17,205 bases of DNA from a virus (lineage: Duplodnaviria; Heunggongvirae; Uroviricota; Caudoviricetes). The stretch is from IMG/VR virus record IMGVR_UViG_2548876701_000026, one strand, 5' to 3'. Of the stretch, positions 1 to 16,970 are shown piece after piece. Both the position numbers and the translations under genes were made by a program. Below the pieces are notes generated by a model. That model saw only the letters and a program-made list of their open reading frames with translations. It was not told the origin of the DNA and did not search any database. Every line of letters starts with the position of its first letter. Positions within the stretch are counted from its first letter, which is position 1.

Positions 1-201
1 TTAAGACTCCAGTTTCGCAAAGGCTCGACGTAACTGATTATTCAAATCACGGTCGACCAGCATCGCTATCAGCTCGTCTCGACTGTAGTAAGGGCGATCA
101 GGGTTATCGACTCCAAGTCTCAGCAGGGACAGGAGGTGACGGGTAGGCAGACCACGGTAGCGGAGAGTTGCACGACCAATAGGTGTGCGCGGGTCAATCA
201 T
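1..201 (-). CDS. hypothetical small protein (66 aa), translationally coupled to the upstream Rha-like gene
   Basis: Complete ORF: stop codon at 1-3, start at 201, overlapping the stop of the 203-931 gene. No recognisable motif. Confidence 0.45.
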   Translation of the reverse strand: MIDPRTPIGRATLRYRGLPTRHLLSLLRLGVDNPDRPYYSRDELIAMLVDRDLNNQLRRAFAKLES

Positions 202-202
202 C

Positions 203-931
203 TTAGAGTCCCTCCAGCTTGCCGGATTGGGCTTGCTTCAGGAGATGCTCTTGCTTCTGCTGGTCGGTGCCAGTGAAGGCAATAAGGATGCCTCGCAGTT
301 TATCGACTATCGCAGGCTTACCGAAGACCTCCAATCCCTTAGCGTTGAAGCGAAAGTTATAACCACCTGCTGAGAACTTCTGGTCTGACGGCTTAATGAT
401 ACGGAAGCAGTCGGAATACTTTGGATTTACAGACCACTCGTTACTGATTGGGTTCTTACGAAAGAGACCACGATGCTGAAGAAGTGCGGTCATTAGCTTC
501 TGAGCGGGTAGACCATAGGTTTTGCAGTAGTCGCCCCAAGTCACGCCTCGGCGGTTAGCGGACTGAATGGCTGCTCGCTTCTTCTGGTCTTCCAGTTGAA
601 GGACTCGACGCTCTAACGTCTGAATATGGTCGTAACACTTGGCGCGGAGGTGAACGGAATAGCCAGCGACCAGAATGAAAGTATGCTTACGGTCGAGACG
701 GTACAGAGGCTGCTGTTTCCCCTGCGCGTTTAGATAGACATCTTCAGTCACCCCGATATGACTGCTCAGTTTTGAGCACTGCTCAGTTTTGAGCGCGTTA
801 AGCTCCTCAGCCATATTGCGAATATCACGTAGGACATTTCGGTGCTCCTTGCCTGTCAGCTCAGCAATTTCAACTGAGGTCATGGAGACAAGCTGGTCGA
901 GGTTAATGACGCTGATTTCTTGTTGAGACAT
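203..931 (-). CDS. Rha-family phage regulatory protein with antirepressor (KilAC-like) C-terminal region
   Basis: N-terminal segment SVEIAELTGKEHRNVLRDIRNM matches the Rha-family signature as I remember it. AAGGAG-like RBS upstream of the ATG at 931. 242 aa. Confidence 0.7.
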   Translation of the reverse strand: MSQQEISVINLDQLVSMTSVEIAELTGKEHRNVLRDIRNMAEELNALKTEQCSKLSSHIGVTEDVYLNAQGKQQPLYRLDRKHTFILVAGYSVHLRAKCYDHIQTLERRVLQLEDQKKRAAIQSANRRGVTWGDYCKTYGLPAQKLMTALLQHRGLFRKNPISNEWSVNPKYSDCFRIIKPSDQKFSAGGYNFRFNAKGLEVFGKPAIVDKLRGILIAFTGTDQQKQEHLLKQAQSGKLEGL

Positions 932-1233
932 TTACGTGTACTCCTTTTGTTTGCACCCTGAAGTCGCACCCCCACTGACCTACTCAAGCCCCCACGTAAA
1001 GGGAGACCAGCAGGCAACAGGACGCAAACAGAATGACTTGAGGTAATTGGGGTTAGTGGTCTGCGATGACCATAGAGATGAAGGTTCGACAGCATGTCCG
1101 AGCGTGTGTGGTGATAGACTTAAGTCACGAGACCAAAGAACACAAAGGCTGACCAGAGGCTGGTGGCTAGCAAGCTAGCGTGGACCACGGTTTCTCGCTT
1201 GCCGTCTCTCAGGAGGTCAGAGGCGAGATATGG

Positions 1234-1255
1234 TCCCTATAGTGATAGTTTAGTC
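1234..1255 (-). promoter_or_regulatory. T7-class single-subunit RNA polymerase promoter-like element (copy 1), predicted start near 1237 reading leftward into the Rha gene
   Basis: Minus strand reads GACTAAACTATCACTATAGGGA; the core TCACTATAGGGA equals the -8..+4 core of the T7 consensus TAATACGACTCACTATAGGGAGA. Exact 21-nt direct repeat of 1793-1813. Confidence 0.5.
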
Positions 1256-1587
1256 AAACAGGAATGAACTTCGGAGAACCTGACGCGAAAGTGTTCAGTA
1301 CTTCCAGTTAGACCCGAAGTATGGAGAACCACATCATAGCGACCGTAGTATACTTCGGGCTGACAGGACTGGAGGCTGGACTTAAAGTTCTTCTTATTGG
1401 AATTGTGATAACACAATCCATAACAAGATGAACTCATGGTCTCCTCAAGCCTGCTGGTCAGGCTCAAAGCTCCAACCTCAGACACCACTGGTCTAACCTT
1501 TTTGAGTTTCCGCCTGTCCACAAATGGATGGCAGACCTCAGCAATGATGTCTTGGTTCTTCACAATCTCGCACACCGATGGTCGCAT
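1237..1587 (-). CDS. hypothetical protein (116 aa by ORF track; alternative start at 1437 with GAGGAG RBS gives 66 aa)
   Basis: ORF lies between promoter-like copies 2 and 1. Weak RBS at 1587, better RBS before the internal ATG at 1437. No motif recognised; could be spurious. Confidence 0.2.
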   Translation of the reverse strand: MRPSVCEIVKNQDIIAEVCHPFVDRRKLKKVRPVVSEVGALSLTSRLEETMSSSCYGLCYHNSNKKNFKSSLQSCQPEVYYGRYDVVLHTSGLTGSTEHFRVRFSEVHSCLTKLSL

Positions 1588-1790
1588 AGACGGATACTTC
1601 CGCTGCGGTCTGATGTTCTCCGCCTGTCAAAGGAGAGAGATTGCTACGTTAAAGGGAATGGTCTCAGGCCAAGGTGATTTAACACTAGGCTTATTGCGGA
1701 TGGTTTCCAATCGGTCCGCTACCGGAAGCCTGAGACTTAATGAATGTGTGGGTCGGTGGCTGTATTAAGCCCGGGGGGACTTAGGGTCTC

Positions 1791-1813
1791 TCCCCTATAG
1801 TGATAGTTTAGTC
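1791..1813 (-). promoter_or_regulatory. T7-class promoter-like element (copy 2), predicted start near 1795
   Basis: Minus strand reads GACTAAACTATCACTATAGGGGAGAGACC. Identical 21-mer to copy 1, and GGGGAGAGACC resembles the T7 initiating region GGGAGACC. Confidence 0.5.
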
Positions 1814-1820
1814 CCCCCCC
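1813..1820. repeat. C8/G8 homopolymer tract between promoter-like copies 3 and 2
   Basis: cccccccc at 1813-1820, read directly. Confidence 0.9.
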
Positions 1821-1839
1821 TTCCCCTATAGTGTGGGTT

Positions 1840-1840
<1 letters not shown>
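1821..1840 (-). promoter_or_regulatory. T7/SP6/K11-class promoter-like element (copy 3, divergent upstream half), immediately after the stop of the 1840-2499 gene
   Basis: Minus strand reads AAACCCACACTATAGGGGAA; CACACTATAGGG core. Confidence 0.35.
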
Positions 1841-4099
<2,259 letters not shown>

Positions 4100-4340
4100 G
4101 TACTGAGACCTTAGGTCTGCTCACTACTTCAACAAAGTTAGTCACAGTGTTGGTTACAGTGAGTAAAACTATCGGAAGGCTTTAAGCCGTATCCCTTAGG
4201 ATTCAGTAAGTTAGTAGACTTTAAGAATGGTCATGGAGCGGGCGAAGGGAATCGAGGAAACCCATAATAACCTGCTGTAAAATAAAGATTTTGTGATCAA
4301 TCATAGGTAACTGATTACGTGATAATAGAGGATCATTATC

Positions 4341-5561
4341 GTGTCGATCAAGAGCCAAGCATACTTATTTAAGAGAAAAGATGGGATCTGGATGTTTCAG
4401 ATTTTTGTTCCTAAATACTTACGTCATCTTTACCCTTACAAGTTGTGGAGAAAAAGCACATCTACACGAGATCTGAATGAGGCGAGAAGATTCAGAAACC
4501 ATCTATTATTAGAATGGGAGGAACTAAAGCGGAAACATAATCCTGATAACCCCGAAAGGAGGTTACAACAAGCTATTGAATCCTTACATTCAGAGGCAAG
4601 GGCCAATAAAAACACGCAAAGAGCCGTAAAACGCGGTTATGCATCGCCTTCCCTATGCTTAATACGTGACGAATACGCCGAATGCTACAGAGAGCGTCGT
4701 TCATACTCAACACTACAGAAATCAGCAAGGGCCGTTGAGCTATTTTTACAAAGCATTCAGAAAGATGATATTCATATTGAGAAAATAGGCAGACGGCTTG
4801 TAACAGTATTCTTAGATGACCAGAAGCAACGAGGAGCAGCCGATCAATCTCGTCAAAACTGGCTTACATGCTTAGGATCGCTCTATGAATTTGCTAAACG
4901 CCGTTATGACGGAATACCAGACAGTAACCCTTTTCACGGTCATAATCTCGAAGCACGTCGCACAATCGAGAGTTATCAACCGTTTACACCTGAACAAATG
5001 CAAAAGCTACTTGATGCAGCGGAGCCGGAGATCAGAAATATTATTTTAATGGGCTTGTTTTCAGGATGCAGATTAGACGAACTGGCAAGTCTGAAAAAGT
5101 CAGAGGTTGTAACTGTGGAAGGAATACGCTGTTTTTATATCAGCAAAAGTAAGACTAAAGCAGGGATCAGGCACGTTCCGATACATTCGAGACTATCGAT
5201 TATTGTCGATGAATATTTAAATCATAATTATGGTGAATATTTGTTCCCTCACTCGAACAAAGTAAAAAGAATCGACGGTAAGAAAGGCCCGTTCTATTCT
5301 CAAGCGTTCTCACGTTTACGTCGTAGCGTCTTGCCAATCGCTACAAATAGACAATGCTTTCACAGCTTGCGCGGGATGTTTATCACTTGTCTTGATCGTG
5401 CCGGAGTGCCTGAACAGCGGATCGGTGCCATTACCGGACATACAGAGCAGAGAGCTAAAACAGAAGCCTTTCGCACCTACTCACAAGGGGCAAGCATTCC
5501 AGAATTAGCTGAATATGTAGAATTAGTAAGATATGAATTAAATATTGATTTTAAGGCTTAA
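4341..5561 (+). CDS. int: tyrosine site-specific recombinase / phage integrase (406 aa, GTG start)
   Basis: R in GCRLDELASL, H-x-x-R in HSLRGMFITCL, GHTEQ...AFRTYSQ with the Tyr. N-terminus YLFKRKDGIWMFQIFVP parallels the other integrase. AGAGGA RBS 8 nt upstream of GTG. Confidence 0.85.
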   Translation: MSIKSQAYLFKRKDGIWMFQIFVPKYLRHLYPYKLWRKSTSTRDLNEARRFRNHLLLEWEELKRKHNPDNPERRLQQAIESLHSEARANKNTQRAVKRGYASPSLCLIRDEYAECYRERRSYSTLQKSARAVELFLQSIQKDDIHIEKIGRRLVTVFLDDQKQRGAADQSRQNWLTCLGSLYEFAKRRYDGIPDSNPFHGHNLEARRTIESYQPFTPEQMQKLLDAAEPEIRNIILMGLFSGCRLDELASLKKSEVVTVEGIRCFYISKSKTKAGIRHVPIHSRLSIIVDEYLNHNYGEYLFPHSNKVKRIDGKKGPFYSQAFSRLRRSVLPIATNRQCFHSLRGMFITCLDRAGVPEQRIGAITGHTEQRAKTEAFRTYSQGASIPELAEYVELVRYELNIDFKA

Positions 5562-5582
5562 AACAACGCCATAGGCGCAATA

Positions 5583-5611
5583 AAGAGGCTTCCTTGTAAT
5601 GGGAGCCTCTT
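5583..5611. terminator. bidirectional hairpin terminator between the convergent integrase (plus) and 613-aa gene (minus)
   Basis: aagaggcttcc / gggagcctctt form an 11-bp stem with one G-U wobble and a 7-nt loop, with T/A-rich flanks. Confidence 0.45.
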
Positions 5612-5668
5612 ATATGCTTAATTCCTTATAAGAGTGTTTTAAATGGTGATTAAACATTCTCTTTATCA

Positions 5669-7510
5669 TTAACTTGGTGCTTGCCCAGACAGAGCCGCCA
5701 ACGTGAAACTACGTTCAAAATCTTGTTGGATACTTCCCACTTTGTAATCGAGGTATGATCCAAGCTGACTACCATCAGGAGCGATATTCACATCAACCTT
5801 ACTTTCTGGCACGTTTACGACAATGCTTGGCGCATACGTCATAGATGGGGTAGTGTTCAGATCACGGCTAACGTTCTCTTTCAGGGATTGCACGTTATCG
5901 GACGGGCTTGAATAGTTCTGAATTGCAGTTCCGCCAGTCGTTGGCTTGTCTTCCGTGCCAGGGATAGGCGATAAGCCTAAAGCACTACGACCCCAATCAA
6001 CCATGCCGCCTACAAACGAATCCTTATAATACATACCGGACGAATCAAGGTTTTCATGTTTGTTCTCTGGATTTATATTCTGGTATGCAGCAGTAAGCCA
6101 CGATACAGCACCAGCAAAGGCGCTCATCATTTCAGCCGTTGAGCTTCCAAGTTCTTTAAACAGAGGATTGAGATCTTTCAACATTTGCGCCCACTCTTCA
6201 CCAGCCTGAGCGTCGAACTCTTCACCGAATCCCGTCATGATAGCTTTCTTACTACCTTCCCAGGCCATATTCATATTAGCCTGTACAGCTTGCAGACGTT
6301 CAGCAGCGTCAAGATCCGCTTGCGTATAGGTGGCATTGGCTTTTTGCATCTTAACGATGGTTTTATTTAGCTCTTCACCGTTACGACTGAAAGCACCACG
6401 GAAATATTGTAAATCATTTCCAAGGTCTTCAAGGATGTGACCCTGCTCCTGATCAGAGAGTCCACGGCGTTCTCCTTCTTTCACTACAGCGCCCAGGAAA
6501 CCTAATGGATCAGTCTGGAAACCTTTAATCTGTTCAGGACTCCAACCATATTTATTAAGGATGTTATCGACGGCACCATTACCGCCAGCCCAGCGACCTT
6601 TCTTAGCGTCCCATTTGGTATTCCCTACGGATTCACCTAAACGCTCTTGAACGTCTTTAAGGTTGTCTTGACGTTGGTCTACGGAACTATCGACACCGTG
6701 TTCTAAGCCGTACTGATTAAGTGCTAACAGGGCGTTAGTGTTTACGTTGACAGCCTTTGCCTTGCGGTTAGTGTCTGTGATCTTGCTTGCCTGATCGGTT
6801 ACGGTATTGAATATCGCAGCACCGCCGAGAGTGGCAGCAGTGAGAGCGGCACCGCCCACCATTGCACCTACACCACCGCCTATATGACCGCCTTTAAGCT
6901 GTTTAGCCATATGTGGATATTTACCGCCATCAGCCGCCACCTGGCGAGCTTTTACAGCAGCCGCACGGCGTTCTAACGTGATACGATCACGGATCAGGTG
7001 ATTCATCTTAGCCTGACTAATAGCGCCTTTCTCATACGCTGCCGTTTGTGCTTTGATGTATTGCAACGTTTTGTAGTATTGGGCGGAGTCCATACCGTCG
7101 CCCATACGCCCTTTCTTAATCCCTTCAAGCTGTCTGAAAGCTTGCTGGCGCTTAATCTCTGCTTTCTCTGCTATTGTCGCTTTAGCGCGGATCTGTTTAT
7201 CGGCAGCTATAGCGGCTTTAGCCTTCGCTTTAGCTTCTGCCTTTGCCACCTTATCAGCGTTCTTCTTATCGGTTTGAGCTTGCTTGTCTGACGCTTTGGC
7301 ATCAGTTTTAGCCTGTGCAGCTTTACGAGCCTTTACCAGATCATGAGCCTCGTCTATAGCTCGTTTAGCCTTCTTCCCTTTCAATGTTGGATTGGTTAGG
7401 TTTTCCATTTCTTTCTGAAATTTCTTCCCTGCGTCCCTTGCTTTCTGTAATGATGCAAAATCAACTTTAAATACAACCTTGTTTGTTAAGGTTGAGATGT
7501 TTAAATCCAT
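5669..7510 (-). CDS. large coiled-coil / glycine-zipper protein, tape-measure-like virion protein (613 aa)
   Basis: Lys/Ala/Glu-rich heptad-like N-terminal third (KVAKAEAKAKAKAAIAADKQIRAKA), hydrophobic Gly-zipper GGHIGGGVGAMVGGAALTAATLGGAAIF, long low-complexity C-terminus. AAGGA RBS upstream. Product assignment by composition only. Confidence 0.45.
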   Translation of the reverse strand: MDLNISTLTNKVVFKVDFASLQKARDAGKKFQKEMENLTNPTLKGKKAKRAIDEAHDLVKARKAAQAKTDAKASDKQAQTDKKNADKVAKAEAKAKAKAAIAADKQIRAKATIAEKAEIKRQQAFRQLEGIKKGRMGDGMDSAQYYKTLQYIKAQTAAYEKGAISQAKMNHLIRDRITLERRAAAVKARQVAADGGKYPHMAKQLKGGHIGGGVGAMVGGAALTAATLGGAAIFNTVTDQASKITDTNRKAKAVNVNTNALLALNQYGLEHGVDSSVDQRQDNLKDVQERLGESVGNTKWDAKKGRWAGGNGAVDNILNKYGWSPEQIKGFQTDPLGFLGAVVKEGERRGLSDQEQGHILEDLGNDLQYFRGAFSRNGEELNKTIVKMQKANATYTQADLDAAERLQAVQANMNMAWEGSKKAIMTGFGEEFDAQAGEEWAQMLKDLNPLFKELGSSTAEMMSAFAGAVSWLTAAYQNINPENKHENLDSSGMYYKDSFVGGMVDWGRSALGLSPIPGTEDKPTTGGTAIQNYSSPSDNVQSLKENVSRDLNTTPSMTYAPSIVVNVPESKVDVNIAPDGSQLGSYLDYKVGSIQQDFERSFTLAALSGQAPS

Positions 7511-7526
7511 AATATTTTCCTTTACC

Positions 7527-7562
7527 TTTTATTTGTTTTGTTTTGTTTTGTTTTGTTTTGTT
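7527..7562. repeat. pentanucleotide simple-sequence repeat (TTTTG)n on plus = (CAAAA)n on minus, about 6 units
   Basis: tttg followed by five perfect ttttg units at 7536-7560, read directly. Encodes the C-terminal KQNKTKQNK of the HTH gene and sits 18 nt upstream of the 613-aa start. Confidence 0.9.
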
Positions 7563-7735
7563 ACGTAGTATTGCACTGCTTCCATAGCTGAGCAGCCAGT
7601 AGTGAAGATTCTTTGACGTACAGCAGTATTAGAGATCCCTAAAAACTTACACACTTGAGAGATATTCAGAATATCTTCCGGTAAGGTGGAAACAGCTTTC
7701 AGGATCTCAACTGGATTGTTGTTTTGTTCGCTCAT
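7529..7735 (-). CDS. small helix-turn-helix DNA-binding protein (AlpA/excisionase-like), 68 aa from the ATG at 7735 (ORF track extends to 7786)
   Basis: ILNISQVCKFLGISNTAVRQRI is a classic HTH. The N-terminal 17 codons of the 7786 start overlap the upstream terminator hairpin, so the internal Met (MSEQ) is preferred. C-terminus is encoded by the (CAAAA)n repeat. Confidence 0.5.
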   Translation of the reverse strand: MSEQNNNPVEILKAVSTLPEDILNISQVCKFLGISNTAVRQRIFTTGCSAMEAVQYYVTKQNKTKQNK

Positions 7736-7778
7736 GATTTTTCTCTCACAATATTTTAATAGACGGTATAAACGAAAA

Positions 7779-7839
7779 AAGGGCAAAAGAGATTGTTTAC
7801 TGTATTTGCGCTACAGGTTTAATAATCCCTTTTGCCCTT
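7779..7839 (-). terminator. intrinsic terminator after the capsid-like gene (long-loop hairpin plus U6 on the minus transcript)
   Basis: aagggcaaaag (7779-7789) and cttttgccctt (7829-7839) are perfect inverted repeats; aaaaaa at 7773-7778 gives UUUUUU 3' of the stem on the minus strand. The 39-nt loop contains an inner ctgta/tacag hairpin. Confidence 0.4.
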
Positions 7840-7888
7840 ATTGCCTGTTTTATTTCCAGTCGCACAGGAAACGACTATTAACGCTTTA

Positions 7889-8917
7889 TTACGCTACTGT
7901 GATCTGTACAGTGAAGCCTACGCCGTGGTTTACAACCATCTGGCTATTCTCAGTAACTACGTTTACAGCGTCGTTACGTGCTGGGCTAAACGCATAGCTG
8001 TAATATTCAGCCGCGCCAGAATTCAGCAGGTCGAACGTTGAAGAAGGAGCGCCGAAAATGTTCTGATAGACGTTAGAGCCTTTAGCGAACTTCGGAACAG
8101 CAACCGCATCAGAAGTCATATGAGCCAGCAGCAGCGGATCAGTAACTTTAACGATATCGATGTTAGTCCCAGGAATAGTGAAGGTAGTCACACCTGGCAG
8201 CAGGGAGCGCACGCTATAAACGATGTTTGCGTCATCGGTAGGGCTTGCATACTGGAACGCGTTAACCATGCCAGCACTGTAACGGATAGCGTTGAAAGCA
8301 GCAGGTTTACAGAATACAACGATACGTTCTACAGCAGCCGCCTGGCTTTGTGCTTTAGTAATAACGTCTGTATGCATCTGATCGAATTGCTGGAACACCA
8401 TAGAAGGCGTGGTGCTTGATGCGTCGATGGTTGCAGTCATCGGAACAACACTAAACAGATCGCCCCACTGGATCAGCACATCATCAGTTTTAGGGGTGTA
8501 AGTGCGACCAGAGAACAGGGAAGCAGCCAGCACGCTTTCTTTAGTACGCTGGAAAGCAATGTGGTGCTTAGCAACATATTCCGCGTAGATATCTGTCAGA
8601 GTTTCTTCAACGGTAGCGCCTGGTTTACGTTTGCCTTGCACGTCTTGCGGCTTAATCATATCTTCACGCAGGAAGTAGGGGATCTCTACTAAAAATTCTT
8701 TACCCTGTTCACGTTTAGTCACGTTATGTTCAGAAGAGAAACGAGAGGTTTCTTTGTTGAACAGAGATTCGTTAGTTTCCACCAGTTGGCTAACAGCCAC
8801 TTTATGAGAACTCACACCTACCGGATCAGTAAAGTCGAGAGAAGTTAACAGGAAGTTGCGAGAGTCGTGCAGACTAAACAGCGGAGCCAGATCGACGGAT
8901 TCATTACCAATAATCAT
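7889..8917 (-). CDS. putative major capsid protein, lambda gpE-like (342 aa)
   Basis: Size and synteny (about 120-aa decoration-like gene immediately upstream, terminator downstream). Loose colinear resemblance to lambda gpE as I recall it (segments IAFQRTKESVLAASLFSGRTYT and ERIVVFCKPAAFNAIRYS). AAAGGAA RBS. Not verified by search. Confidence 0.45.
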   Translation of the reverse strand: MIIGNESVDLAPLFSLHDSRNFLLTSLDFTDPVGVSSHKVAVSQLVETNESLFNKETSRFSSEHNVTKREQGKEFLVEIPYFLREDMIKPQDVQGKRKPGATVEETLTDIYAEYVAKHHIAFQRTKESVLAASLFSGRTYTPKTDDVLIQWGDLFSVVPMTATIDASSTTPSMVFQQFDQMHTDVITKAQSQAAAVERIVVFCKPAAFNAIRYSAGMVNAFQYASPTDDANIVYSVRSLLPGVTTFTIPGTNIDIVKVTDPLLLAHMTSDAVAVPKFAKGSNVYQNIFGAPSSTFDLLNSGAAEYYSYAFSPARNDAVNVVTENSQMVVNHGVGFTVQITVA

Positions 8918-8935
8918 TATTTTTATTCCTTTATA

Positions 8936-9307
8936 TTAAGATGTGAATACAGTGTTAAAACCAGCCATCTGGAAACCTTTTGCAGCCAGGGCAGCAATAG
9001 CAGCTTCTTTCACAGCGCCTTCAACATTCAGAGCATCGGACTTGATGCAAACCAGTCCGGCATTGCTACGCAGCACGTTAACGGTTTTAGCGTCGCCAGC
9101 GGATACCGCATCAGACACAACTACAAGAACATCGCCGCCGCTTACATATTCAGCGCCGTCACTGGTAATCAGATCGCCGCATTCAACATCAACCGCCAGA
9201 TCAACGGTAAAAGATTGCACACAACCGAACTCATCAGTTGCATATGAAACGATATCGGTAAATGATTTGCGAACTGGAAACAGATCGCTCATATTAATAA
9301 TAGCCAT
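8936..9307 (-). CDS. putative head decoration protein (gpD-like), 123 aa
   Basis: Position immediately upstream of the capsid-like gene; small Ala/Val/Gly/Asp-rich protein with a C-terminal AAIAALAAKG segment. AAGGAAA RBS. Confidence 0.35.
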   Translation of the reverse strand: MAIINMSDLFPVRKSFTDIVSYATDEFGCVQSFTVDLAVDVECGDLITSDGAEYVSGGDVLVVVSDAVSAGDAKTVNVLRSNAGLVCIKSDALNVEGAVKEAAIAALAAKGFQMAGFNTVFTS

Positions 9308-9309
9308 AA

Positions 9310-9525
9310 TTAATAGTTTCCTTTTTTGGATTGTTTGATTTGTTCTGCTTTTGCTTTAATCAGATCCTGCATAGTAGGTTTCTGTTCATCAGCAGACTTA
9401 AAAAGCTTATCACAATGTTTTTTCAATTCTGTGGGAGTGATCCCCAGCATATAAGCCGTAGCATTGAATGTTTCATCAGTGATAACCAATTCTTCGTTAC
9501 CATTCTTTAGAATGAGATTTTGCAT
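9310..9525 (-). CDS. hypothetical small protein (71 aa), first gene of the capsid-like cluster
   Basis: ORF with stop abutting the start of the decoration-like gene. No motif recognised. Confidence 0.4.
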   Translation of the reverse strand: MQNLILKNGNEELVITDETFNATAYMLGITPTELKKHCDKLFKSADEQKPTMQDLIKAKAEQIKQSKKGNY

Positions 9526-9578
9526 TATTGCTTTACCTTTATTCCTAACAGTCTTGTTTAGTGCTGATAAAAATAAAA

Positions 9579-9599
9579 CCGGAAGGGGAAAGCTTCCGG
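9579..9599 (-). terminator. intrinsic terminator (minus-strand orientation)
   Basis: ccggaag / cttccgg form a 7-bp GC-rich stem with a 7-nt loop; on the minus strand it is followed by UUUUAUUUUUAU (plus 9565-9577). Confidence 0.55.
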
Positions 9600-10115
9600 C
9601 TTTATGAATACAACATTTGAAGGATGTTATAGAGTGTTACTAAATCGCAGTTTATATGAACTTAAAGAGGAGGACATATAAGAATAAGATTGCTTATTGT
9701 TATATACCCTTGAGGGGTGAATAACAGGCTTACAGGGAGTAGGCGCTTAGGAGGTCGCCCCCTTTGGAGAGGAATCTATAAACCTGTTATTCGTGCGACG
9801 GCTAATCGCTGTCTTTCACAATGTGGATGCATCGATCAGACTTTCAGGAATCACCTATTAACTTTCAAACCTTTTGGATTCTCATTTTAATAGGAGGCGG
9901 TGCCGAGATGATTTCGGGGATCATCCACGCTTTCGCGTTCTAAGATTGGCACCTTAATAAACACCAACAAACAAAAACATATTCAGCTTTAAGCTTAGTA
10001 GAAAACTGTTGTCAAGAAACAGATATACACCGTTATTTGTTTATACGGGGTTTATAGACACTGTAAACAGTGTTTTTAGAAAGTGTTTCATGCTTCGCAG
10101 TTGGTTAAAAAGATG

Positions 10116-10137
10116 AGGGGCCAAATCCGTAGCCCCT
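10116..10137 (-). terminator. candidate intrinsic terminator downstream of the small-gene operon
   Basis: aggggc / gcccct form a 6-bp stem with a 10-nt loop; the minus strand then reads CAUCUUUUUAACC. Confidence 0.35.
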
Positions 10138-10403
10138 GCATTCTTAAGACACAATTTTGATAAAGCAATAAGGAAAATAAAATGAAACTATTAACGAGGG
10201 AAACAATTTCTAAAAAATCACTGTAAAGGGAAAGCGGGATAGGTTAGATAGGGCGCGCCCCCTTGAGGTCTACCCCGCTTTCGTGTAGGATTAGAATCGG
10301 GAGAAGGATTAACGCCAGCTAACACATATTTTCGATTCAAAACCCCACATTTATTATTATAACATTTCTGTTAGTAAAAGTCAATAGGTAAATGCAATTA
10401 TTT

Positions 10404-10613
10404 TCAACTTTTTTCGGTTGTCAGTTCCCACTCACCAAATACGCAATTACCATCTAAAACGATTGTTTGATCGTTACCGTTATCATCGGTTACGTGCATC
10501 AGGCGGGTGTAAGTGTCGAGTAAGCCGGTATACACTTTACCTACTGTGAAACAATTACCCGCTTTCCCTTCTTCTGTGAGCGCCAGAAGGCGCACACGTT
10601 TAGTTTTTGTCAT
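10404..10613 (-). CDS. hypothetical small protein (69 aa), last gene of the operon
   Basis: Start overlaps the stop of the upstream gene (TAATG). No motif recognised. Confidence 0.45.
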   Translation of the reverse strand: MTKTKRVRLLALTEEGKAGNCFTVGKVYTGLLDTYTRLMHVTDDNGNDQTIVLDGNCVFGEWELTTEKS

Positions 10614-10921
10614 TAGTTGTTAGCCTTATCGATTAATTCATTAATGAGGGGTTGCAGATCTGCTACCGCTTCTTTCATGATTTCAGTGGTGTCATGAATG
10701 ACGATGATCAGATTAGAAAGGTCATCAGCTTCAATCTGTGCACCTTCGCTCTCTTCGCACGCTGCAATAAGTAGTTGCAGTGCTTCCCGCGTCGATTCCA
10801 GATTAATAACCGCCTGTGTGATGGTTAGCTCGCTTGGAAAAGTCAGAGCCGCGTTTACTGCTTTCTGTAAATCAATAACCAGATCCATCATTTGAATAGT
10901 TACGTTGTGTACTTCGCTCAT
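10613..10921 (-). CDS. hypothetical acidic protein (102 aa)
   Basis: TAATG overlap with both neighbours; Asp/Glu-rich helical-looking sequence. Confidence 0.45.
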   Translation of the reverse strand: MSEVHNVTIQMMDLVIDLQKAVNAALTFPSELTITQAVINLESTREALQLLIAACEESEGAQIEADDLSNLIIVIHDTTEIMKEAVADLQPLINELIDKANN

Positions 10922-11142
10922 TATGCCACTTCCTCTGATTGTTCTAATTGTTGTTGTGCTTCACGAGCTTTCTTCATAGCAATAGTGAGCGGGATTTTAT
11001 AAGTTGCAATGTTGTCTATAATATCATCGAGTAAACCGAGATCGTTTTCTTCCTGTGCACGTTCAATCAGGCTTATGAAGCATTCAGAAAGAAGTTTAAG
11101 ATCGTGAAAAGTGGTTGTCTCTAAAATTGCTTTGTTAATCAT
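10921..11142 (-). CDS. hypothetical small protein (73 aa)
   Basis: AAAAGGAAAA RBS upstream; acidic C-terminal tail. Confidence 0.45.
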   Translation of the reverse strand: MINKAILETTTFHDLKLLSECFISLIERAQEENDLGLLDDIIDNIATYKIPLTIAMKKAREAQQQLEQSEEVA

Positions 11143-11183
11143 TTTATTTTCCTTTTGTTAAGGGTTATATTCAGCAAACGCTG

Positions 11184-11564
11184 TTAATCGTCGATTTTTA
11201 TTTTATCAAGCAGAAGTAATTCGGTTTCTCTCACCCCTGCATATTGCAGACTGTTAAGAGCCATATACCCCCTAAAGTGGTGCATATCCTGAAAACCCAA
11301 ACACTGCCATCTTTTCAGAAGACTGGAATCTATAACCGTTGTTTTGCGTGGGCGCGGATTAAAGTAAACACCGTCCATACTTTGAATGAGTGATAATTCT
11401 TCGTCTGTTAATTCTGGGCTTGGTTCTTCAAGTATAAAGATCAATTCCTCGCCTGGTTGTGCATCATGCTCATAATTATATTTGCGAGGATTGTTTAACG
11501 CATACTGATCACATGCTTCGCCAATAGTTGTTATTACGTTTTTCTTGCCTTTTTTCTTGCTCAT
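11184..11564 (-). CDS. hypothetical protein (126 aa)
   Basis: GAAGGGGAAG RBS; basic N-terminus MSKKKGKKN. No motif recognised. Confidence 0.45.
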   Translation of the reverse strand: MSKKKGKKNVITTIGEACDQYALNNPRKYNYEHDAQPGEELIFILEEPSPELTDEELSLIQSMDGVYFNPRPRKTTVIDSSLLKRWQCLGFQDMHHFRGYMALNSLQYAGVRETELLLLDKIKIDD

Positions 11565-11685
11565 TGCTTCCCCTTCGTTTTGTTTTTCTTGTTGCAGTGT
11601 TAAAAAAGGAAGCGATCATAAATACTAAGAAAAATATTAAGCTTTCCATTGTTTCACCCTTCAAGATGTTTGATAGTTGTTTGTT

Positions 11686-11904
11686 TTAAGCTACAGAGTC
11701 GATTCTGAATGCTTTCATATGAGTTTTGGTATACTGCAATAATCCTTGTTTACTTAGGCTATCGAGAAGAGCATATAAAAATTGCTCACCTACCACACCG
11801 GAAAACTCAGAATCAAACAGAATCATTCCCGTTCTTTCCCGTAAATATTGCAGAAAGGTTTCTTGTGAAAATTCGCTATCGAATATGGTCACAGCGCCAC
11901 CCAC
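11686..11904 (-). CDS. hypothetical protein (72 aa, GTG start); possibly the downstream half of a frameshifted gene with 11889-12146
   Basis: GTG start overlaps the end of the upstream ORF by 16 nt in another frame; internal duplication IFDSEFS ... LFDSEFS. Confidence 0.3.
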   Translation of the reverse strand: MGGAVTIFDSEFSQETFLQYLRERTGMILFDSEFSGVVGEQFLYALLDSLSKQGLLQYTKTHMKAFRIDSVA

Positions 11905-12146
11905 AATTCGAAAGGGCTTATCTCAAGCAAACGGAACGTCTGACTATTCACAGCCTCATACTTAATTACCCCAAAATGGCTCAGGTGATTTAACCAGTGC
12001 TGTGTGTGTTCTTTACTATGAGGTAACTCCTGAAAGCTGATAATCGCGGGTAGCTCATAATTGCTATCAGCAAGCTGTTTTGCCAGTGTGTAGCCGCTTT
12101 CTGTAATTTCGAATGTTCGTTTGTTTAATGTCAGGTTGTATTTCAT
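11889..12146 (-). CDS. hypothetical protein (85 aa)
   Basis: AAGGAG RBS 9 nt upstream of the ATG; stop of the Rep-like gene is 12 nt upstream. Confidence 0.45.
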   Translation of the reverse strand: MKYNLTLNKRTFEITESGYTLAKQLADSNYELPAIISFQELPHSKEHTQHWLNHLSHFGVIKYEAVNSQTFRLLEISPFELWVAL

Positions 12147-12158
12147 TTTTTATTCTCC

Positions 12159-12824
12159 TTAAAATGGTATTGAGTCATAGATTTCACTTTCTTTTCTCAG
12201 GGCTATCATCAGTGCATTAAAAGCATCATCTTCAAGAATTATCCTCTTCGAGGTCAGTGCACGTTTTATAAAATTTTCTGTTTCTTCTTGCATAGGCTTT
12301 TGGCTGTCTATGGAAATAAGCCATGTAAAAAGATCAGATTGTTCCGTGATTTCTGCCTGTGTTTCCTGCTCAATAGAGTGTGTCGCTTCTAACGGTTCCT
12401 GTGTTTCAGGTGCAGGCTGTTCTACGTTTACAGAGGTTTTTACGTCTTCCGGTGGTGTGATGTGTGCATCTGTAAAGGGTAATGCTTTATAGAGTGATGT
12501 TTGCCCGTCCCGTGCCTCTACAGAAAGAACACCCATATCAATAAACATATTTATAATATTACGCACCTGACGATCACTAACCATTCCAATATTAGCTAAT
12601 GTTTTTTGATTGGCGTAACATTCTTGCCCTTGTTCATTGAACCCAGCTACGTAACTGTAGATTTCAACGGCTGGAAGTGTCGCGGTGTATTCCTTACCTG
12701 ACGGTGAGAACCACTTTTTAAACATCTTCAGCCATTGTTCAACTACTACATATGTTTGTTTACTATCTTTCTTATTGAGGCATTGCGCTTTTGCTTCGGC
12801 AATTGTTTTGGTGTTTTGGTTCAT
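12159..12824 (-). CDS. winged-helix DNA-binding protein resembling phage/plasmid replication initiator or replisome-organizer N-terminal domains (221 aa)
   Basis: Segment YSYVAGFNEQGQECYANQKTLANIGMVSDRQVRNIINMFIDMGVL fits the pattern (Y..N...G.CY.SQ.TLA...G.S...V.R.I..L...G.I) seen in Rep/replisome-organizer HTH domains; acidic linker follows. AAAGGAGG RBS. Confidence 0.5.
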   Translation of the reverse strand: MNQNTKTIAEAKAQCLNKKDSKQTYVVVEQWLKMFKKWFSPSGKEYTATLPAVEIYSYVAGFNEQGQECYANQKTLANIGMVSDRQVRNIINMFIDMGVLSVEARDGQTSLYKALPFTDAHITPPEDVKTSVNVEQPAPETQEPLEATHSIEQETQAEITEQSDLFTWLISIDSQKPMQEETENFIKRALTSKRIILEDDAFNALMIALRKESEIYDSIPF

Positions 12825-12948
12825 TTAGTTCCTCCTTTGTAAGGACTGTAATTAGTAATTCATTAACAAGTTTTGGAATTGATTTCCCTTCTGCCTTTGC
12901 ACGATTTAACAACGCGTTATAAGTTGCAGAATCAAAATTAATATTCAT
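12772..12948 (-). CDS. small DNA-binding-like protein, possibly ribbon-helix-helix (58 aa; below the ORF-track cutoff)
   Basis: ATG at 12948 with AAGGAG RBS at 8-nt spacing. Hand translation MNINFDSATYNALLNRAKAEGKSIPKLVNELLITVLTKEEL... shows a strand-helix-helix pattern. Overlaps the start of the Rep-like gene by about 50 nt. Confidence 0.4.
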   Translation of the reverse strand: MNINFDSATYNALLNRAKAEGKSIPKLVNELLITVLTKEELNEPKHQNNCRSKSAMPQ

Positions 12949-12971
12949 TTGGTTTTCTCCTTCTCCTGTTA

Positions 12972-13154
12972 TTATTCTTTCTCTGCTTCTGCCTTACGCA
13001 GTTCATCAATAATTTTTAGTGCATCGTCAAAGCATTTTTCACGCTCTGGATAACCACAGCGCCGCGCTGTGTTCCTGTTCATCCTTACTTGATGTCGTGT
13101 TAGCTCACCTTTTTTAAATGCCTCTACGACGTGTTCCGGTGTATACCATTTCAT
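12972..13154 (-). CDS. hypothetical small basic protein (60 aa from the ATG at 13154; ORF track begins at a GTG at 13187)
   Basis: AAGGAG RBS 6 nt upstream of the ATG (MKWYTPEHVV...). First gene of the leftward operon. Confidence 0.45.
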   Translation of the reverse strand: MKWYTPEHVVEAFKKGELTRHQVRMNRNTARRCGYPEREKCFDDALKIIDELRKAEAEKE

Positions 13155-13769
13155 AAAAAACTCCTTATTTAGATAAAAGAAAAACACACCTTGCAGCCTG
13201 ACGGCTCAAAGTGCAGTGTTCTGTGATTTGATTATTTAGATGGAGAGAGATGTTTCTCCCCTCCCTACTTACAATACTACATAACGGCGGCTTTGTCAAC
13301 CCTCTCTTATAAAAAACTTGATCATTTTCAATTTCTTATAATTTTTCTTAGCTTTTTGTGCTGCCTACTCTGGTACAATTCTTCCCTGTTGCCTAAAACG
13401 CTCTCAATCGCACTCTGACGGGGGTTTTGATAAAAACAATACATTCCCTTATGTAGAGGTTGTTTATCTCGTCAGAGGCTTATTTAAGGGGCTTATTTTT
13501 GATTTATCAGATGATGGAAAGATGGTGGATAGATAAACTCTGATTTCAGACATCTTATAAAATACCTGTAAAGCTCCTCAGAAGCTCTATAACGAGCTAA
13601 TCTATTACCGCTAAGTGTTTCCCTACCTTATATACGTTTAGCTCGCCTACGGCTTGATTTAAGCGGTAGAAACTTATTTAACCTTCAACTACTAAAACCA
13701 TTCTTTCTTTTTTGTTTGTTGTTGGTTGTTGTCTGTGTCTATGTGCTAACATCGCTAACGCGTAGCACA

Positions 13770-14035
13770 CAAGGTTATTGCACTCGTCAGAGTATTGCAC
13801 AATAGATTTTCTCTTAAATAGATTGATGATCGTTAGATTGGCGTAAGCCTCATCAATGGAACTATTGAAGCGCACAGCGCATAGACACTAACAACCATTC
13901 GCTTACGCTCAGGTTATTGCACAAGTAAATTTCAATCGTTAGATGGTAGTTAGTTAATTATCGTTCTGCGCACAGCGCAAGACTATTAGCCATACGCAAG
14001 CCGTAGGCTATTTGCACATAGTAGATTACATATTC
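13770..14035. repeat. degenerate tandem repeats of about 100 bp carrying recurring TTGCACA, CGTTAGAT and CGCACAGCGCA motifs
   Basis: cgcacagcgca at 13871-13881 and 13969-13979; cgttagat at 13831 and 13937; aggttattgcac at 13772 and 13911. Confidence 0.5.
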
Positions 14036-14918: not shown

Positions 14919-15440
14919 CCTCTATTATGTGCAATGGCTTTTCAGGCAACGCGTTAGCGTATTCTTGCGAATGCCTGATCTCCAAAGCCGGAATTAAACA
15001 GCAAGAATATCTCGTGTAAATCATAGAATATTCATAGTTTATCCCTATGTAATTCCATACTAAAAATTCAATGAAAAGTAGCTTAAAAGAGCAATGTTAG
15101 CTTTCTTCACTTTTACATTATCATCAGCAAAGCCTTATGTAATGCGGCATATAGCGCATCACTGCAAAATTGTTGCTCAATAAACGTTCTATCATTTATT
15201 GAACAAGTTTCCTTTAATGCAACAAAAAATTATTTTTTCAAAATAAACACACTATTTAATAGCTTGCTAATTTTACCAAAATGTAACTACATGATTCTCA
15301 TGCAAGACGTGTAGTGATAAAGCAGGCTAAATCACCACACTAAAAACCTTCGAATTTCGTAGTGAAAAAAGTCCTTTACACACCTAATCAACACGATCAA
15401 TAATCACTACACACAAATCAACACAGAAGGAATAAAGAAA

Positions 15441-15992: not shown

Positions 15993-16227
15993 TGCCTCCT
16001 GATATTTCAGAATTGTCGCTGCATGGACCTGACGGCGCTGATCTTCTCGTTAAGCGATGATCACGTATGCGCCGATTTCAGAGAAAAAGACAGTAACTGA
16101 ACTCACTATGAAGGCTAAACGTATCTTTACACTTGATGGAAACGTCCAAAAAACAACCTAACCCCAAAACCCAACAAATTGCAAAATATTGTTTTTAAAA
16201 GAAAATCAAATCTACATCAAATATTGG

Positions 16228-16965: not shown

Positions 16966-16970
16966 TAATT

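What the first reader, a model, noticed from the sequence alone, without database searches (positions are those of the whole stretch)
1771..1826. Promoter-like copy 2 sits in the loop of an 8-bp inverted repeat next to a C8 tract
GGGGGGAC (1773-1780) and GTCCCCCC (1811-1818) are perfect inverted repeats flanking the 21-mer; the C8/G8 run at 1813-1820 separates copies 3 and 2. Homopolymer tracts of 8 are slippage-prone, and a hairpin around a promoter could gate its use, so this could be a switch on early transcription.
Basis: seen in the sequence. Interest (0 to 1): 0.4.

Follow-up and report, generated by a model that had tools for sequence, protein, structure and literature searches.

The report
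G-tract between tandem phage-type promoters
The C8 run and small inverted repeat sit between two T7-family phage promoters on a known type of E. coli integrative island, and although the run varies in length among strains, nothing shows that it or the hairpin acts as a switch.

Summary
The C8 run is at 1813-1820. The perfect inverted repeat is 9 bp, at 1773-1781 and 1810-1818. The genes here lie on the minus strand.

Read on that strand, the three "promoter-like copies" are T7-family phage RNA-polymerase promoters. Copies 1 and 2 score like annotated promoters of the K1F-like phage EcoDS1. Copy 3 has the core of phage SRT7 promoters.

The window is not a phage. It is an E. coli chromosomal island at tRNA-Gly (glyU): integrase, RAZR/PD-T7-4 anti-T7 defence gene, tandem promoters, Rha and small unknown genes, with no RNA polymerase gene. 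This island type is named in the title of Chen & Schneider (2006).

The tract is G8 on the sense strand. It lies at -18..-25 of copy 2 and +7..+14 of copy 3, outside the -17..+6 promoter box. Its length does vary: about 103 genomes have G8, 19 have G7, one has G10, and diverged alleles have G4-G6. The variation follows clades.

The downstream arm of the repeat is allele-specific, and 12 alleles give no covariation support. Tandem promoter pairs in other genera have no such tract.

The promoter identification holds. The hairpin-gate and phase-switch idea is not supported, and remains untested experimentally.

The parts
1813..1820 (-). Homopolymer tract, C8 on the plus strand and G8 on the sense (minus) strand. 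It lies at -18..-25 of promoter copy 2 and +7..+14 of promoter copy 3.
   Evidence: Searches give the sequence. Length polymorphism among E. coli genomes comes: about 103 G8, 19 G7, 0 G9, 1 G10, and G4-G6 in diverged alleles.
1773..1781 (.). Left arm of the 9-bp inverted repeat (GGGGGGACT on the plus strand). On the sense strand it is AGTCCCCCC, at +15..+23 of the copy 2 transcript, and is part of the recurrent leader GAGACCCTAAGTCCCC.
   Evidence: One search gives the repeat coordinates. Searches show the C-run length is allele-specific (C3-C6) and the arm is absent in several alleles.
1810..1818 (.). Right arm of the inverted repeat (AGTCCCCCC on the plus strand). On the sense strand it is GGGGGGACT: six G of the tract plus positions -17..-15 of copy 2.
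   Evidence: One search shows the outer pairs are kept in only 3 of 12 alleles, with no covariation.
1790..1812 (-). Promoter copy 2 (-17..+6, +1 at 1795): ACTAAACTATCACTATAGGGGAG. It is K1F/EcoDS1 (Kayfunavirus) type.
   Evidence: it matches the EcoDS1 phi10 promoter ACTAAACTATCACTATAGGGAGA apart from one extra G at +1. The EPSSH018 allele matches 23/23; 32.0 bits, against 30.5-37.1 for the phage promoters; the motif occurs 8-10 times per ~40 kb phage genome.
1821..1843 (-). Promoter copy 3 (-17..+6, +1 at 1826): ATGAAACCCACACTATAGGGGAA. It has the SRT7-type core and overlaps the RAZR stop codon (1840-1842).
   Evidence: the core AACCCACACTATAGGG recurs at least 9 times in Escherichia phage SRT7; other alleles carry a T3-like box (AATAAACCCTCACTATAGGG) or no box here.
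1232..1254 (-). Promoter copy 1 (-17..+6, +1 at 1237): ACTAAACTATCACTATAGGGACC. It is K1F/EcoDS1 type and lies 306 nt upstream of the Rha start codon.
   Evidence: 22/23 match to EcoDS1 phi6.5; 35.9 bits.
1255..1789 (-). Spacer of about 535 nt between copy 2 and copy 1. It is conserved among alleles but has frame-breaking indels, so the 116-aa ORF at 1237-1587 is probably not a gene.
   Evidence: One search gives the alignment, with indels of 1-2 nt; only the first ~27 codons of a short ORF with a GAGGAG ribosome-binding site are kept; no phage DNA homolog apart from the promoter box.
1840..2499 (-). RAZR / PD-T7-4 anti-phage gene: zinc finger plus DUF4145 HEPN RNase, 219 aa.
   Evidence: PADLOC PD-T7-4, E 1.3e-102. 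Pfam DUF4145. R146, H154 and AGN68-70 match RAZR-Ec as described in PMC13017515.
2492..4099 (-). Island tyrosine integrase, 535 aa.
   Evidence: Pfam PF00589; it sits next to tRNA-Gly in other strains; orthologues occur in 17 loci across Enterobacterales.
4234..4255 (.). Copy of the 3' end of tRNA-Gly (att repeat) marking the integrase-side boundary of the island. A second element begins directly after it.
   Evidence: the 17-nt core TGGAGCGGGCGAAGGGA is repeated at both island ends in O26 11368 (L009 13149 and 22234) and in strain 104 (L052 5577 and 11963).
203..931 (-). Rha / anti-repressor-like gene, the first clear gene downstream of the promoters. It belongs to a variable module and is replaced by other small genes in other alleles.
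   Evidence: PF09669. PHROG anti-repressor Ant, E 2.4e-69. Searches show the alternative modules.
1..201 (-). 66-aa ORF following Rha, function unknown.
   Evidence: One search lists it. One search shows it is called as a gene. Searches find no family hits.

Best explanation
The feature is the junction between two tandem, same-direction promoters for single-subunit RNA polymerases of T7-family phages. These promoters sit on the minus strand of a roughly 6.4 kb integrative island inserted at tRNA-Gly (glyU) of E. coli.

Shown:
- The island order is integrase, RAZR (PD-T7-4), copy 3, copy 2, a ~535-nt spacer, copy 1, a variable module (Rha plus a 66-aa ORF), then two conserved unknown genes.
- Copies 1 and 2 are indistinguishable from K1F/EcoDS1-type phage promoters. 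Copy 3 has an SRT7-type core.
- No phage-type RNA polymerase gene is in the island.
- Homologous islands in other genera carry promoters of the phage types that infect those hosts. The Klebsiella island carries K11-type and T7-type boxes.

Inferred:
- The promoters are silent until an infecting T7-family phage supplies its polymerase. That polymerase then transcribes the spacer and the downstream cargo genes. The purpose could be defence, or satellite-like exploitation of the phage.

The G8 tract is best read as a slippage-expanded form of the GGGG spacer that separates the two 23-bp boxes in related alleles. The other arm (AGTCCCCCC) belongs to a leader motif, GAGACCCTAAGTCCCC, that recurs after the +1 of copy 2. 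In this allele the two happen to give a perfect 9-bp inverted repeat.

The tract lies outside the -17..+6 box conserved among alleles and phages. From general knowledge of T7 RNA polymerase, that box is also the region the enzyme contacts. Changes in tract length therefore alter only the spacing between promoters (27 to 33 bp) and positions +7..+14 of the copy 3 transcript. I judge them most likely neutral or near-neutral, not a gate.
For: Promoter identity:
- Searches give matches to annotated EcoDS1 promoters. The motif occurs 8-10 times per ~40 kb Kayfunavirus genome.
- One search gives PWM scores of 35.9 and 32.0 bits, inside the phage range.
- Searches identify copy 3 as SRT7 type.

Island anatomy:
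- Searches give the gene order, the tRNA-Gly site and the 17-nt direct repeats.
- One search shows the island inserted in a prophage tRNA-Gly.
- Searches show no ORF longer than 613 aa in the window.

Conservation:
- the promoter box is conserved at 0.91, against 0.49-0.57 in the flanks, over 14 alleles.
- the promoter type matches the host genus.

Tract and repeat:
- related alleles have G4; diverged E. coli alleles and an Enterobacter island have G5 or G6; tandem pairs with no G run occur in one E. coli/Shigella allele and in Klebsiella.
- about 103 G8, 19 G7, 0 G9 and 1 G10. The G7 clone shares an IS66 insertion.
- no covariation, and the outer pairs are kept in 3 of 12 alleles.
- 8-bp inverted repeats are common by chance.
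- no sigma-70-like promoter or intrinsic terminator on the minus strand in 1-2600.

Prior description:
- The title of Chen & Schneider 2006 is cited in PMC7545054 and PMC2784778.
Against: - No expression data exist. Transcription from these boxes by any phage polymerase is inferred from sequence only.
- The tract is polymorphic, which is also what a contingency locus would show.
- The predicted DNA hairpin around copy 2 is somewhat more stable than shuffles (z -2.3 to -2.9) in three allele types. An inner core of about 6-7 bp (GGGGACT / AGTCCCC) is present in most alleles. A structural role for that shorter stem is therefore not excluded.
- Some G7 calls could be homopolymer errors in long-read assemblies.
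- I could not read Chen & Schneider 2006. My account of its content beyond the title is from memory.
Confidence: 0.75

Rival explanations
1. Phase-variable switch. Slippage of the G/C tract changes hairpin stability or promoter spacing, and so switches transcription of the downstream genes on and off.
For: The tract length differs among genomes: G4-G8 and G10. G7 occurs in at least two flanking-allele backgrounds. The tract sits between two promoters, so its length sets their spacing at 27-33 bp.
Against: - The tract is outside -17..+6 of copy 2. It is in no credible gene: the only overlapping ORF is a 77-aa TTG-start frame that overlaps the RAZR gene. It is also in no sigma-70 spacer.
- The lengths follow clades. 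About 103 genomes are all G8, and the G7 EHEC clone shares an IS66 insertion.
- No G9 was found.
- Most relatives have only GGGG, or no G run, between equally well conserved promoter pairs.
- The repeat is not conserved.
Confidence: 0.08
2. RNA-level element. The C-rich leader after copy 2 forms a 5' stem-loop, either with the +1 GGGG of the copy 2 transcript or with the G tract in copy 3 transcripts. This would stabilise or process the phage-polymerase transcripts, much as the 5' stem-loop of T7 phi10 mRNA does.
For: The leader GAGACCCTAAGTCCCC recurs after +1 in E. coli, Enterobacter and Citrobacter islands. The predicted RNA structures are -26.5 kcal/mol for 62 nt and -37.2 kcal/mol for 87 nt, the latter with z -3.7. 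The role of the T7 phi10 leader hairpin is from general knowledge.
Against: The z-score of the 62-nt hairpin is only -1.65, and the copy 2 transcript alone gives -0.81. There are no compensatory changes. The region just downstream of +12 is the most indel-rich part of the spacer. Alleles EPSSH018 and ECONIH6 lack the motif.
Confidence: 0.1
3. The boxes are not functional promoters. They would be decaying remnants of a T7-like prophage, or chance look-alikes, and the G/C runs would be junk.
For: No RNA polymerase gene is nearby. The cargo proteins have no phage homologs. There is no expression evidence.
Against: - The boxes match at 23/23 and 22/23 and score inside the range of real promoters.
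- The boxes are much better conserved than their flanks over 14 alleles.
- Islands in other genera carry intact boxes of other specificities, in the same position after integrase and RAZR. One is an exact T7 consensus in K. pneumoniae.
- No other phage DNA is present.
Confidence: 0.04

Closest known systems
Genetic islands with tandem T7-like promoters in enterobacterial genomes (Chen & Schneider, Nucleic Acids Res 2006, 34:1133; doi 10.1093/nar/gkj511)
   Same: An integrase lies upstream, followed by 2-3 T7-like promoters within a few hundred bases. There is no RNA polymerase gene. A few small non-structural ORFs lie downstream. Short direct repeats mark the ends, and the size is a few kb. 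The title is seen. Details of the paper's content are from memory.
   Different: Nothing structural differs. What was not available in 2006 is the identity of the upstream gene as RAZR/PD-T7-4 and the assignment of the boxes to K1F/EcoDS1 and SRT7 types. I have no evidence that the G tract or the inverted repeat was described there.
Kayfunavirus (K1F / EcoDS1) phage promoters phi10 and phi6.5
   Same: The -17..+6 sequence is identical or differs by one base. The PWM score is the same.
   Different: These promoters are on a bacterial chromosome, with no cognate polymerase and no phage genes around them. Copy 2 in this allele has GGGG rather than GGG at +1.
Phase-variable homopolymer tracts (contingency loci of Neisseria, Haemophilus, Campylobacter)
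   Same: A G/C run of 7-10 next to promoters, with length polymorphism among isolates.
   Different: The tract is not in a reading frame and not between the recognition elements of a promoter. The variation follows clades. E. coli is not known for such loci (general knowledge). No expression consequence has been shown.
Helper-activated promoters of satellite phage P4 (late promoters switched on by P2 Ogr / P4 delta)
   Same: It works in a similar way. A small integrative element carries promoters that fire only with a transcription factor or polymerase supplied by an infecting phage (inference).
   Different: Here the signal would be the phage's own single-subunit RNA polymerase, not an activator of the host polymerase. 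No capsid-size or packaging functions are recognisable, and satellite behaviour is unproven.
T7 primary replication origin (tandem phi1.1A / phi1.1B promoters) and the T7 phi10 5' leader hairpin
   Same: Two closely spaced phage promoters point the same way, and a G-start leader can pair with a downstream C-rich run. The T7 facts are from general knowledge.
   Different: No AT-rich stretch follows the promoters; GC is about 50%. There is no similarity to phage origin or pac DNA.

Membership tests
Tandem T7-like promoter islands (Chen & Schneider 2006) | Two or three T7-like promoters clustered within a few hundred bases, all in one direction | tested here: met
   Starts (+1) are at 1826, 1795 and 1237 on the minus strand, a span of 590 bp.
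Tandem T7-like promoter islands (Chen & Schneider 2006) | No cognate single-subunit RNA polymerase gene in the island | tested here: met
   The island gene lists show nothing of the ~880-aa size of a T7-type polymerase (size from general knowledge). The largest island ORF is the 535-aa integrase.
Tandem T7-like promoter islands (Chen & Schneider 2006) | Tyrosine-recombinase integrase upstream of the promoters, and short direct repeats at both ends | tested here: met
   The integrase is PF00589. The 17-nt repeat TGGAGCGGGCGAAGGGA lies at both ends in L009 and L052, with a copy in the window at 4234-4255.
Tandem T7-like promoter islands (Chen & Schneider 2006) | Small size (a few kb), with a few downstream ORFs that are not phage structural proteins | tested here: met
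   The island is 6.4 kb in strain 104 and 9.1 kb with IS66 in O26 11368. The cargo genes give no structural hits.
T7-family (Autographiviridae) phage RNA-polymerase promoter | A 23-bp box at -17..+6 with the core CACTATAGG(G), matching promoters used many times in a phage genome | tested here: met
   Searches cover the K1F/EcoDS1 type. Searches cover the SRT7 type. One search gives the scores.
T7-family (Autographiviridae) phage RNA-polymerase promoter | Initiation by the cognate phage polymerase at the predicted +1 | not testable with these tools
   This needs in vitro transcription or 5'-end mapping during infection.
Phase-variable simple-sequence contingency locus | Homopolymer tract with length polymorphism among isolates | tested here: met
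   G4, G5, G6, G7, G8 and G10 were seen.
Phase-variable simple-sequence contingency locus | Tract placed in a reading frame or between promoter recognition elements, so that its length changes expression | tested here: not met
   The tract is at -18..-25 of copy 2 and +7..+14 of copy 3. It is in no credible gene: only a 77-aa TTG-start ORF overlapping the RAZR gene covers it. No sigma-70-like promoter was found.
Phase-variable simple-sequence contingency locus | High-frequency, reversible switching within a clone | tested here: inconclusive
   The genome survey shows clade-structured lengths. About 103 genomes are G8, and the G7 clone shares an IS66 insertion. Read-level data from single cultures are not available.
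Intrinsic (or T7 class I) terminator | GC-rich hairpin followed by a U run | tested here: not met
   The hairpin is followed by GGGCUUAAUAC. The terminator scan finds nothing on the minus strand.
Conserved RNA/DNA hairpin | Pairing maintained across relatives, ideally with compensatory changes | tested here: not met
   72% of cells are paired against 70.7% in shuffles, and 126 of 500 shuffles do as well. The outer pairs are kept in 3 of 12 alleles. Rfam gives no match.
RAZR / PD-T7-4 (adjacent gene) | Zinc finger plus DUF4145 HEPN domain, with catalytic R146 and H154 | tested here: met
   PADLOC E 1.3e-102 over the full length. The residues were checked against PMC13017515.

The most novel reading that the evidence does not exclude
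The slippage-prone G tract could be a tuning element of a phage-polymerase-triggered island. It sets the spacing between an SRT7/T3-type promoter and a K1F-type promoter (27-33 bp) and the +7..+14 sequence of the upstream transcript. It may also give G-quadruplex or hairpin potential on the non-template strand. Tract length would then decide which infecting T7-family phage fires the cargo genes of the RAZR-carrying island, and how strongly. That would be a heritable, reversible adjustment of an anti-phage or satellite response.
Probability: 0.06. Interest if true: 0.6.

Novelty: already known. Interest (0 to 1): 0.25.

Why it matters
The hairpin and tract matter little on present evidence. They look like a by-product of slippage in a weakly constrained junction.

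The object they belong to is more interesting. It is a family of small tRNA-Gly islands across Enterobacterales that pairs the RAZR anti-T7 abortive-infection RNase with promoters readable only by the RNA polymerases of the T7-family phages of that host.

The function of these islands was proposed in 2006 but, as far as this library shows, has never been tested. The RAZR literature does not mention the promoters next to the gene. If the promoters fire on infection, they are a natural phage-polymerase sensor. They would drive either a second defence layer or a satellite life cycle.

Tried and rejected
- Megablast of window 1-8000 against phages gave no match. The window is therefore not a known phage genome.
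- Rfam at gathering thresholds gave nothing.
- ARAGORN found no intact tRNA in the window. The att copy was found by k-mer search instead.
- tblastn of the 169-aa and 329-aa cargo proteins against phages gave no match.
- PHROGs and PDB profile searches for the 329-aa family gave no match.
- The 163-aa family matches only PDB 5EUR, 'Uncharacterized protein'. A weak Pfam T7_gp14 hit (E 0.015) was not confirmed by any other search and is set aside.
- blastn of the spacer against phages matched only the promoter box. I therefore dropped the idea that the spacer is a phage-derived origin or pac region.
- The sigma-70 and terminator scan found nothing on the minus strand.
- I first thought the spacer was unusually conserved. 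The integrase proteins are 96-98% identical among the same alleles, so that is not established.
- Chen & Schneider 2006 could not be opened by PMC id or DOI. Literature searches for follow-up work or a satellite link found nothing.
- One literature query failed on a too-short term, two find queries failed on punctuation, and one script failed on a file name.
Full report
**1. The observation**

GGGGGGAC is at 1773-1780, GTCCCCCC at 1811-1818 and C8 at 1813-1820. The perfect inverted repeat is in fact 9 bp, at 1773-1781 and 1810-1818.

The 21-mer shared by copies 1 and 2 is at 1235-1255 and 1793-1813.

All credible genes in this part of the window run on the minus strand. The region therefore has to be read as its reverse complement:

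...CGAATGAAACCCACACTATA GGGGAA GGGGGGGG ACTAAACTATCACTATA GGGGAGAGACCCTAAGTCCCCCCGGGC...

The repeat is not statistically remarkable.
- 8-bp inverted repeats with a loop of 40 nt or less give 23 k-mer hits in the window. Dinucleotide shuffles give 12.3 +/- 4.6.
- The C8 run is the only G/C run of 8 or more in the window. 7% of shuffles have at least one.
- The predicted hairpins are modest. DNA gives -11.5 / -12.8 kcal/mol with z -2.9 / -2.3. A 62-nt RNA gives -26.5 kcal/mol with z -1.65.

**2. What the promoter-like copies are**

On the minus strand the three boxes have the T7-family core CACTATAGGG.

A 36-mer around copy 2 matches 687 phage records, at 8-10 places per ~40 kb genome. The closest matches are Kayfunavirus (K1F-like) phages and their relatives. 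The 17-mer AAACTATCACTATAGGG occurs in 35 IMG/VR stretches, nearly all from contigs of about 39-40 kb.

The annotated promoters of Escherichia phage EcoDS1 compare as follows:
- phi10 is ACTAAACTATCACTATAGGGAGA. This equals copy 2 except for one extra G at +1 in this allele. The EPSSH018 allele matches 23/23.
- phi6.5 matches copy 1 at 22/23.

A weight matrix built from the 11 EcoDS1 promoters scores copy 1 at 35.9 bits and copy 2 at 32.0 bits. The phage's own promoters score 30.5-37.1. The next best site in the window scores 7.3.

Copy 3 (ATGAAACCCACACTATAGGGGAA) has a different specificity region. Its core AACCCACACTATAGGG is repeated at least 9 times in Escherichia phage SRT7, and many times in another ~38.5 kb T7-like contig.

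The coordinates (-17..+6) are:
- copy 3: 1821-1843, +1 at 1826
- copy 2: 1790-1812, +1 at 1795
- copy 1: 1232-1254, +1 at 1237

**3. Where this is**

The window is not a phage. Bases 1-4200 are 100% identical to the chromosomes of E. coli O26:H11 11368 and many other strains.

The gene order in O26 11368 is:
tRNA-Gly (glyU) | 535-aa tyrosine integrase | 219-aa DUF4145 protein | three promoters | Rha | 66-aa ORF | IS66 | 169-aa and 329-aa hypothetical proteins | GH15 protein | ETT2 type III secretion genes.

A 17-nt direct repeat, TGGAGCGGGCGAAGGGA (the 3' end of tRNA-Gly), bounds the island.
- In O26 11368 it lies at L009 13149 and 22234, giving 9.1 kb including IS66.
- In strain 104 it lies at L052 5577 and 11963, giving 6.4 kb.

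The island is mobile as a unit.
- In strain EPSSH018 it sits in a tRNA-Gly of a lambdoid prophage.
- In NCTC9966 a related module interrupts a DMSO/selenate-type reductase gene upstream of ynfF.

No ORF in the island is large enough to be a T7-type RNA polymerase. In the window itself a second, unrelated element has inserted at the same att site, from 4256 onward.

**4. The upstream gene**

The DUF4145 protein matches the PADLOC model PD-T7-4 at E 1.3e-102 over its full length. PD-T7-4 was renamed RAZR. It is an abortive-infection HEPN RNase that assembles on portal rings of T7, T3 and other phages (PMC13017515).

The window protein has R146, H154 and AGN68-70, as reported for RAZR-Ec. [quoted passage not shown]

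The RAZR stop codon (1840-1842) lies inside the copy 3 box.

**5. Prior description**

[quoted passage not shown] The paper is not held in the library.

From memory, it describes 4-13 kb islands with these features:
- 2-3 tandem T7-like promoters
- no polymerase gene
- an upstream integrase
- terminal direct repeats
- a proposed dependence on T7-like helper phages

Every one of those features is met here (see the membership table). The promoter part of the finding is therefore already known.

**6. Relatives**

The integrase retrieved 17 loci in species-representative genomes: Citrobacter, Buttiauxella, Shimwellia, Enterobacter, Klebsiella, Rouxiella, Pectobacterium, Proteus, Edaphovirga, Serratia and Morganella. 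Six of the eight loci scanned for tRNAs sit next to tRNA-Gly(CCC). Most have a RAZR-like gene after the integrase.

They carry T7-family boxes at the same place, and the types vary with the host:

| Host | Boxes |
|---|---|
| K. pneumoniae ATCC 13883 | AATTAGGGCACACTATAGGGGGA (K11 type), followed 27 bp later by TAATACGACTCACTATAGGGAGA (the exact T7 consensus); also an exact K11 consensus box |
| Proteus cibi | AATTAACCCACACTATAGGGAGA, twice |
| Citrobacter | T3-like plus K1F-like pairs, 27 bp apart |

Among E. coli alleles the upstream box is SRT7-type, T3-like (AATAAACCCTCACTATAGGG) or missing.

Over 14 distinct alleles, the -17..+6 box of copy 2 is conserved at 0.91 (mean majority fraction). 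The flanks are at 0.49-0.57. These are selected sites, not relics.

**7. The tract**

On the sense strand the tract occupies -18..-25 of copy 2 and +7..+14 of copy 3. That is outside the -17..+6 box conserved among alleles and phages. From general knowledge, that box is also the region T7-type polymerases contact.

The tract is in no credible gene. The only ORF that overlaps it is a 77-aa TTG-start frame (1737-1970, minus strand), which itself overlaps the RAZR gene. No sigma-70-like promoter or intrinsic terminator is found on the minus strand of 1-2600.

Its length is polymorphic:

| Length | Where seen |
|---|---|
| G8 | window, O26 11368, AR_0019 |
| G7 | H2, 2011C_3361, GPEC1240, CFSAN064035 |
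| G10 | strain 104 |
| G6 | ECONIH6 |
| G5 | strain 4600 |
| G4 | SCU-313, M159-1, EPSSH018 |
| none | Combat13F7 |

An 86-nt core query was run with different tract lengths against 5,426 complete E. coli genomes. About 103 carry G8, 19 carry G7, none carry G9 and one carries G10.

The pattern is nonetheless clade-structured.
- The large O26/O111/O103 group is uniformly G8.
- The G7 EHEC group also shares an IS66 insertion in the spacer.

Other short runs nearby vary in the same way: +1 is GGG or GGGG, and the leader C run is C3-C6. That is what unconstrained slippage would give. Some single-base differences may be assembly errors.

**8. The inverted repeat**

The upstream arm is the G tract plus ACT, the first three bases of the copy 2 box. 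The downstream arm is the end of a leader, GAGACCCTAAGTCCCC, that recurs after +1 in E. coli, Enterobacter and Citrobacter islands. It recurs even where the upstream sequence cannot pair with it (Combat13F7, ECMA0423).

The full 9-bp stem exists only in the window-type allele. AR_0019-type alleles have GTCCCCAC. EPSSH018 and ECONIH6 have no arm at all.

On a 12-allele alignment the named helix has 72% of cells paired. Shuffles give 70.7%, and 126 of 500 shuffles do as well. The two outer pairs are kept in 3 of 12 alleles, and there is no meaningful covariation.

A cruciform with a 28-nt loop, or a terminator without a U run, is not a plausible gate. The upstream arm also lies upstream of the copy 2 start, so only copy 3 transcripts could contain the full hairpin.

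**9. Mechanism**

Shown:
- The sites are phage-type promoters.
- They are conserved.
- They point towards the cargo genes.
- There is no polymerase gene.
- Their types track the host.
- RAZR is adjacent.

Inferred:
- The promoters are silent until a T7-family phage brings its polymerase.
- Transcription then runs through the ~535-nt spacer into Rha, the 66-aa ORF and the two conserved unknown genes.

Whether this serves defence or a satellite life cycle cannot be decided here. The cargo proteins have no informative homologs, and the spacer has no phage-derived DNA.

The tract and the repeat are most simply a slippage-expanded spacer meeting a C-rich leader.

**10. Verdict**

The promoter idea is right, but the setting is wrong: this is a chromosomal island, not a phage early region. 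The switch and hairpin mechanism is not supported, although the tract is polymorphic. The entity is already known, and interest is low for the tract itself.

Noticed in passing
window 1840-2499 (-), and L060-L076 about 9600-10260: The gene directly upstream of the tandem phage promoters is RAZR/PD-T7-4, whose stop codon lies inside the copy 3 box. A RAZR-like zinc-finger/DUF4145 gene follows the integrase in most related islands across genera. The RAZR paper does not mention islands or these promoters, so the link between RAZR and T7-promoter islands seems not to have been made.
   Followed up: partly
L070 10267-10821; L072 9883 and 10511; L060 10273-10870; L052 8927-8955: The promoter specificity class changes with host and allele. 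K. pneumoniae has K11-type plus exact T7 consensus boxes. Proteus has AATTAACCCACACTATAGGGAGA. Citrobacter and E. coli strain 104 have T3-like plus K1F-like pairs, and strain 104 has a second tandem pair at the copy 1 position. This suggests selection to be read by several different phage polymerases.
   Followed up: partly
window 1255-1789 (-): The ~535-nt spacer between copy 2 and copy 1 is well conserved but has 1-2 nt indels, so the 116-aa ORF at 1237-1587 is probably spurious. A short ORF (MSSSCYGLCYHNSNKKNFKSS...) with a strong GAGGAG ribosome-binding site is kept for only about 27 codons. A 10-bp inverted repeat CCCGAAGTAT/ATACTTCGGG (1313-1322 / 1350-1359) lies just upstream of copy 1. 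The spacer's function is unknown.
   Followed up: partly
window 4256-17205: A second integrative element (GC about 38-46%) is inserted in tandem at the same tRNA-Gly att site. It carries a 406-aa integrase (4341-5561 +), a tape-measure-like 613-aa protein (5669-7510 -), a major head protein (7889-8917 -), a replication-initiator-like protein (12159-12824 -) and a resolvase (15441-15992 +). It is absent from O26 11368. It may be a capsid-encoding satellite or a small defective prophage.
   Followed up: partly
L014 9041-14965; L051 4164-9852: In strain EPSSH018 the island is integrated into a tRNA-Gly inside the tRNA cluster of a lambdoid prophage. In NCTC9966 a related promoter-plus-cargo module, with a decayed integrase, interrupts a DMSO/selenate-type reductase gene upstream of ynfF.
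   Followed up: no
L009 14654-15163 (-) and homologs (alignment A4): The conserved 152-169-aa cargo protein family matches PDB 5EUR ('Uncharacterized protein') at E 3e-37. A structure exists but no function is assigned. The 326-402-aa partner protein has no PDB, Pfam, PHROG or PADLOC match.
   Followed up: partly
L004 6735-9320; L056 1-426: An EHEC clone (2011C_3361, 2013C_3678, 99_0288, CP027335 and others) carries an IS66 (ISCro1) insertion inside the promoter spacer together with the G7 tract variant. In O26 11368 the same IS sits downstream of Rha instead.
   Followed up: partly
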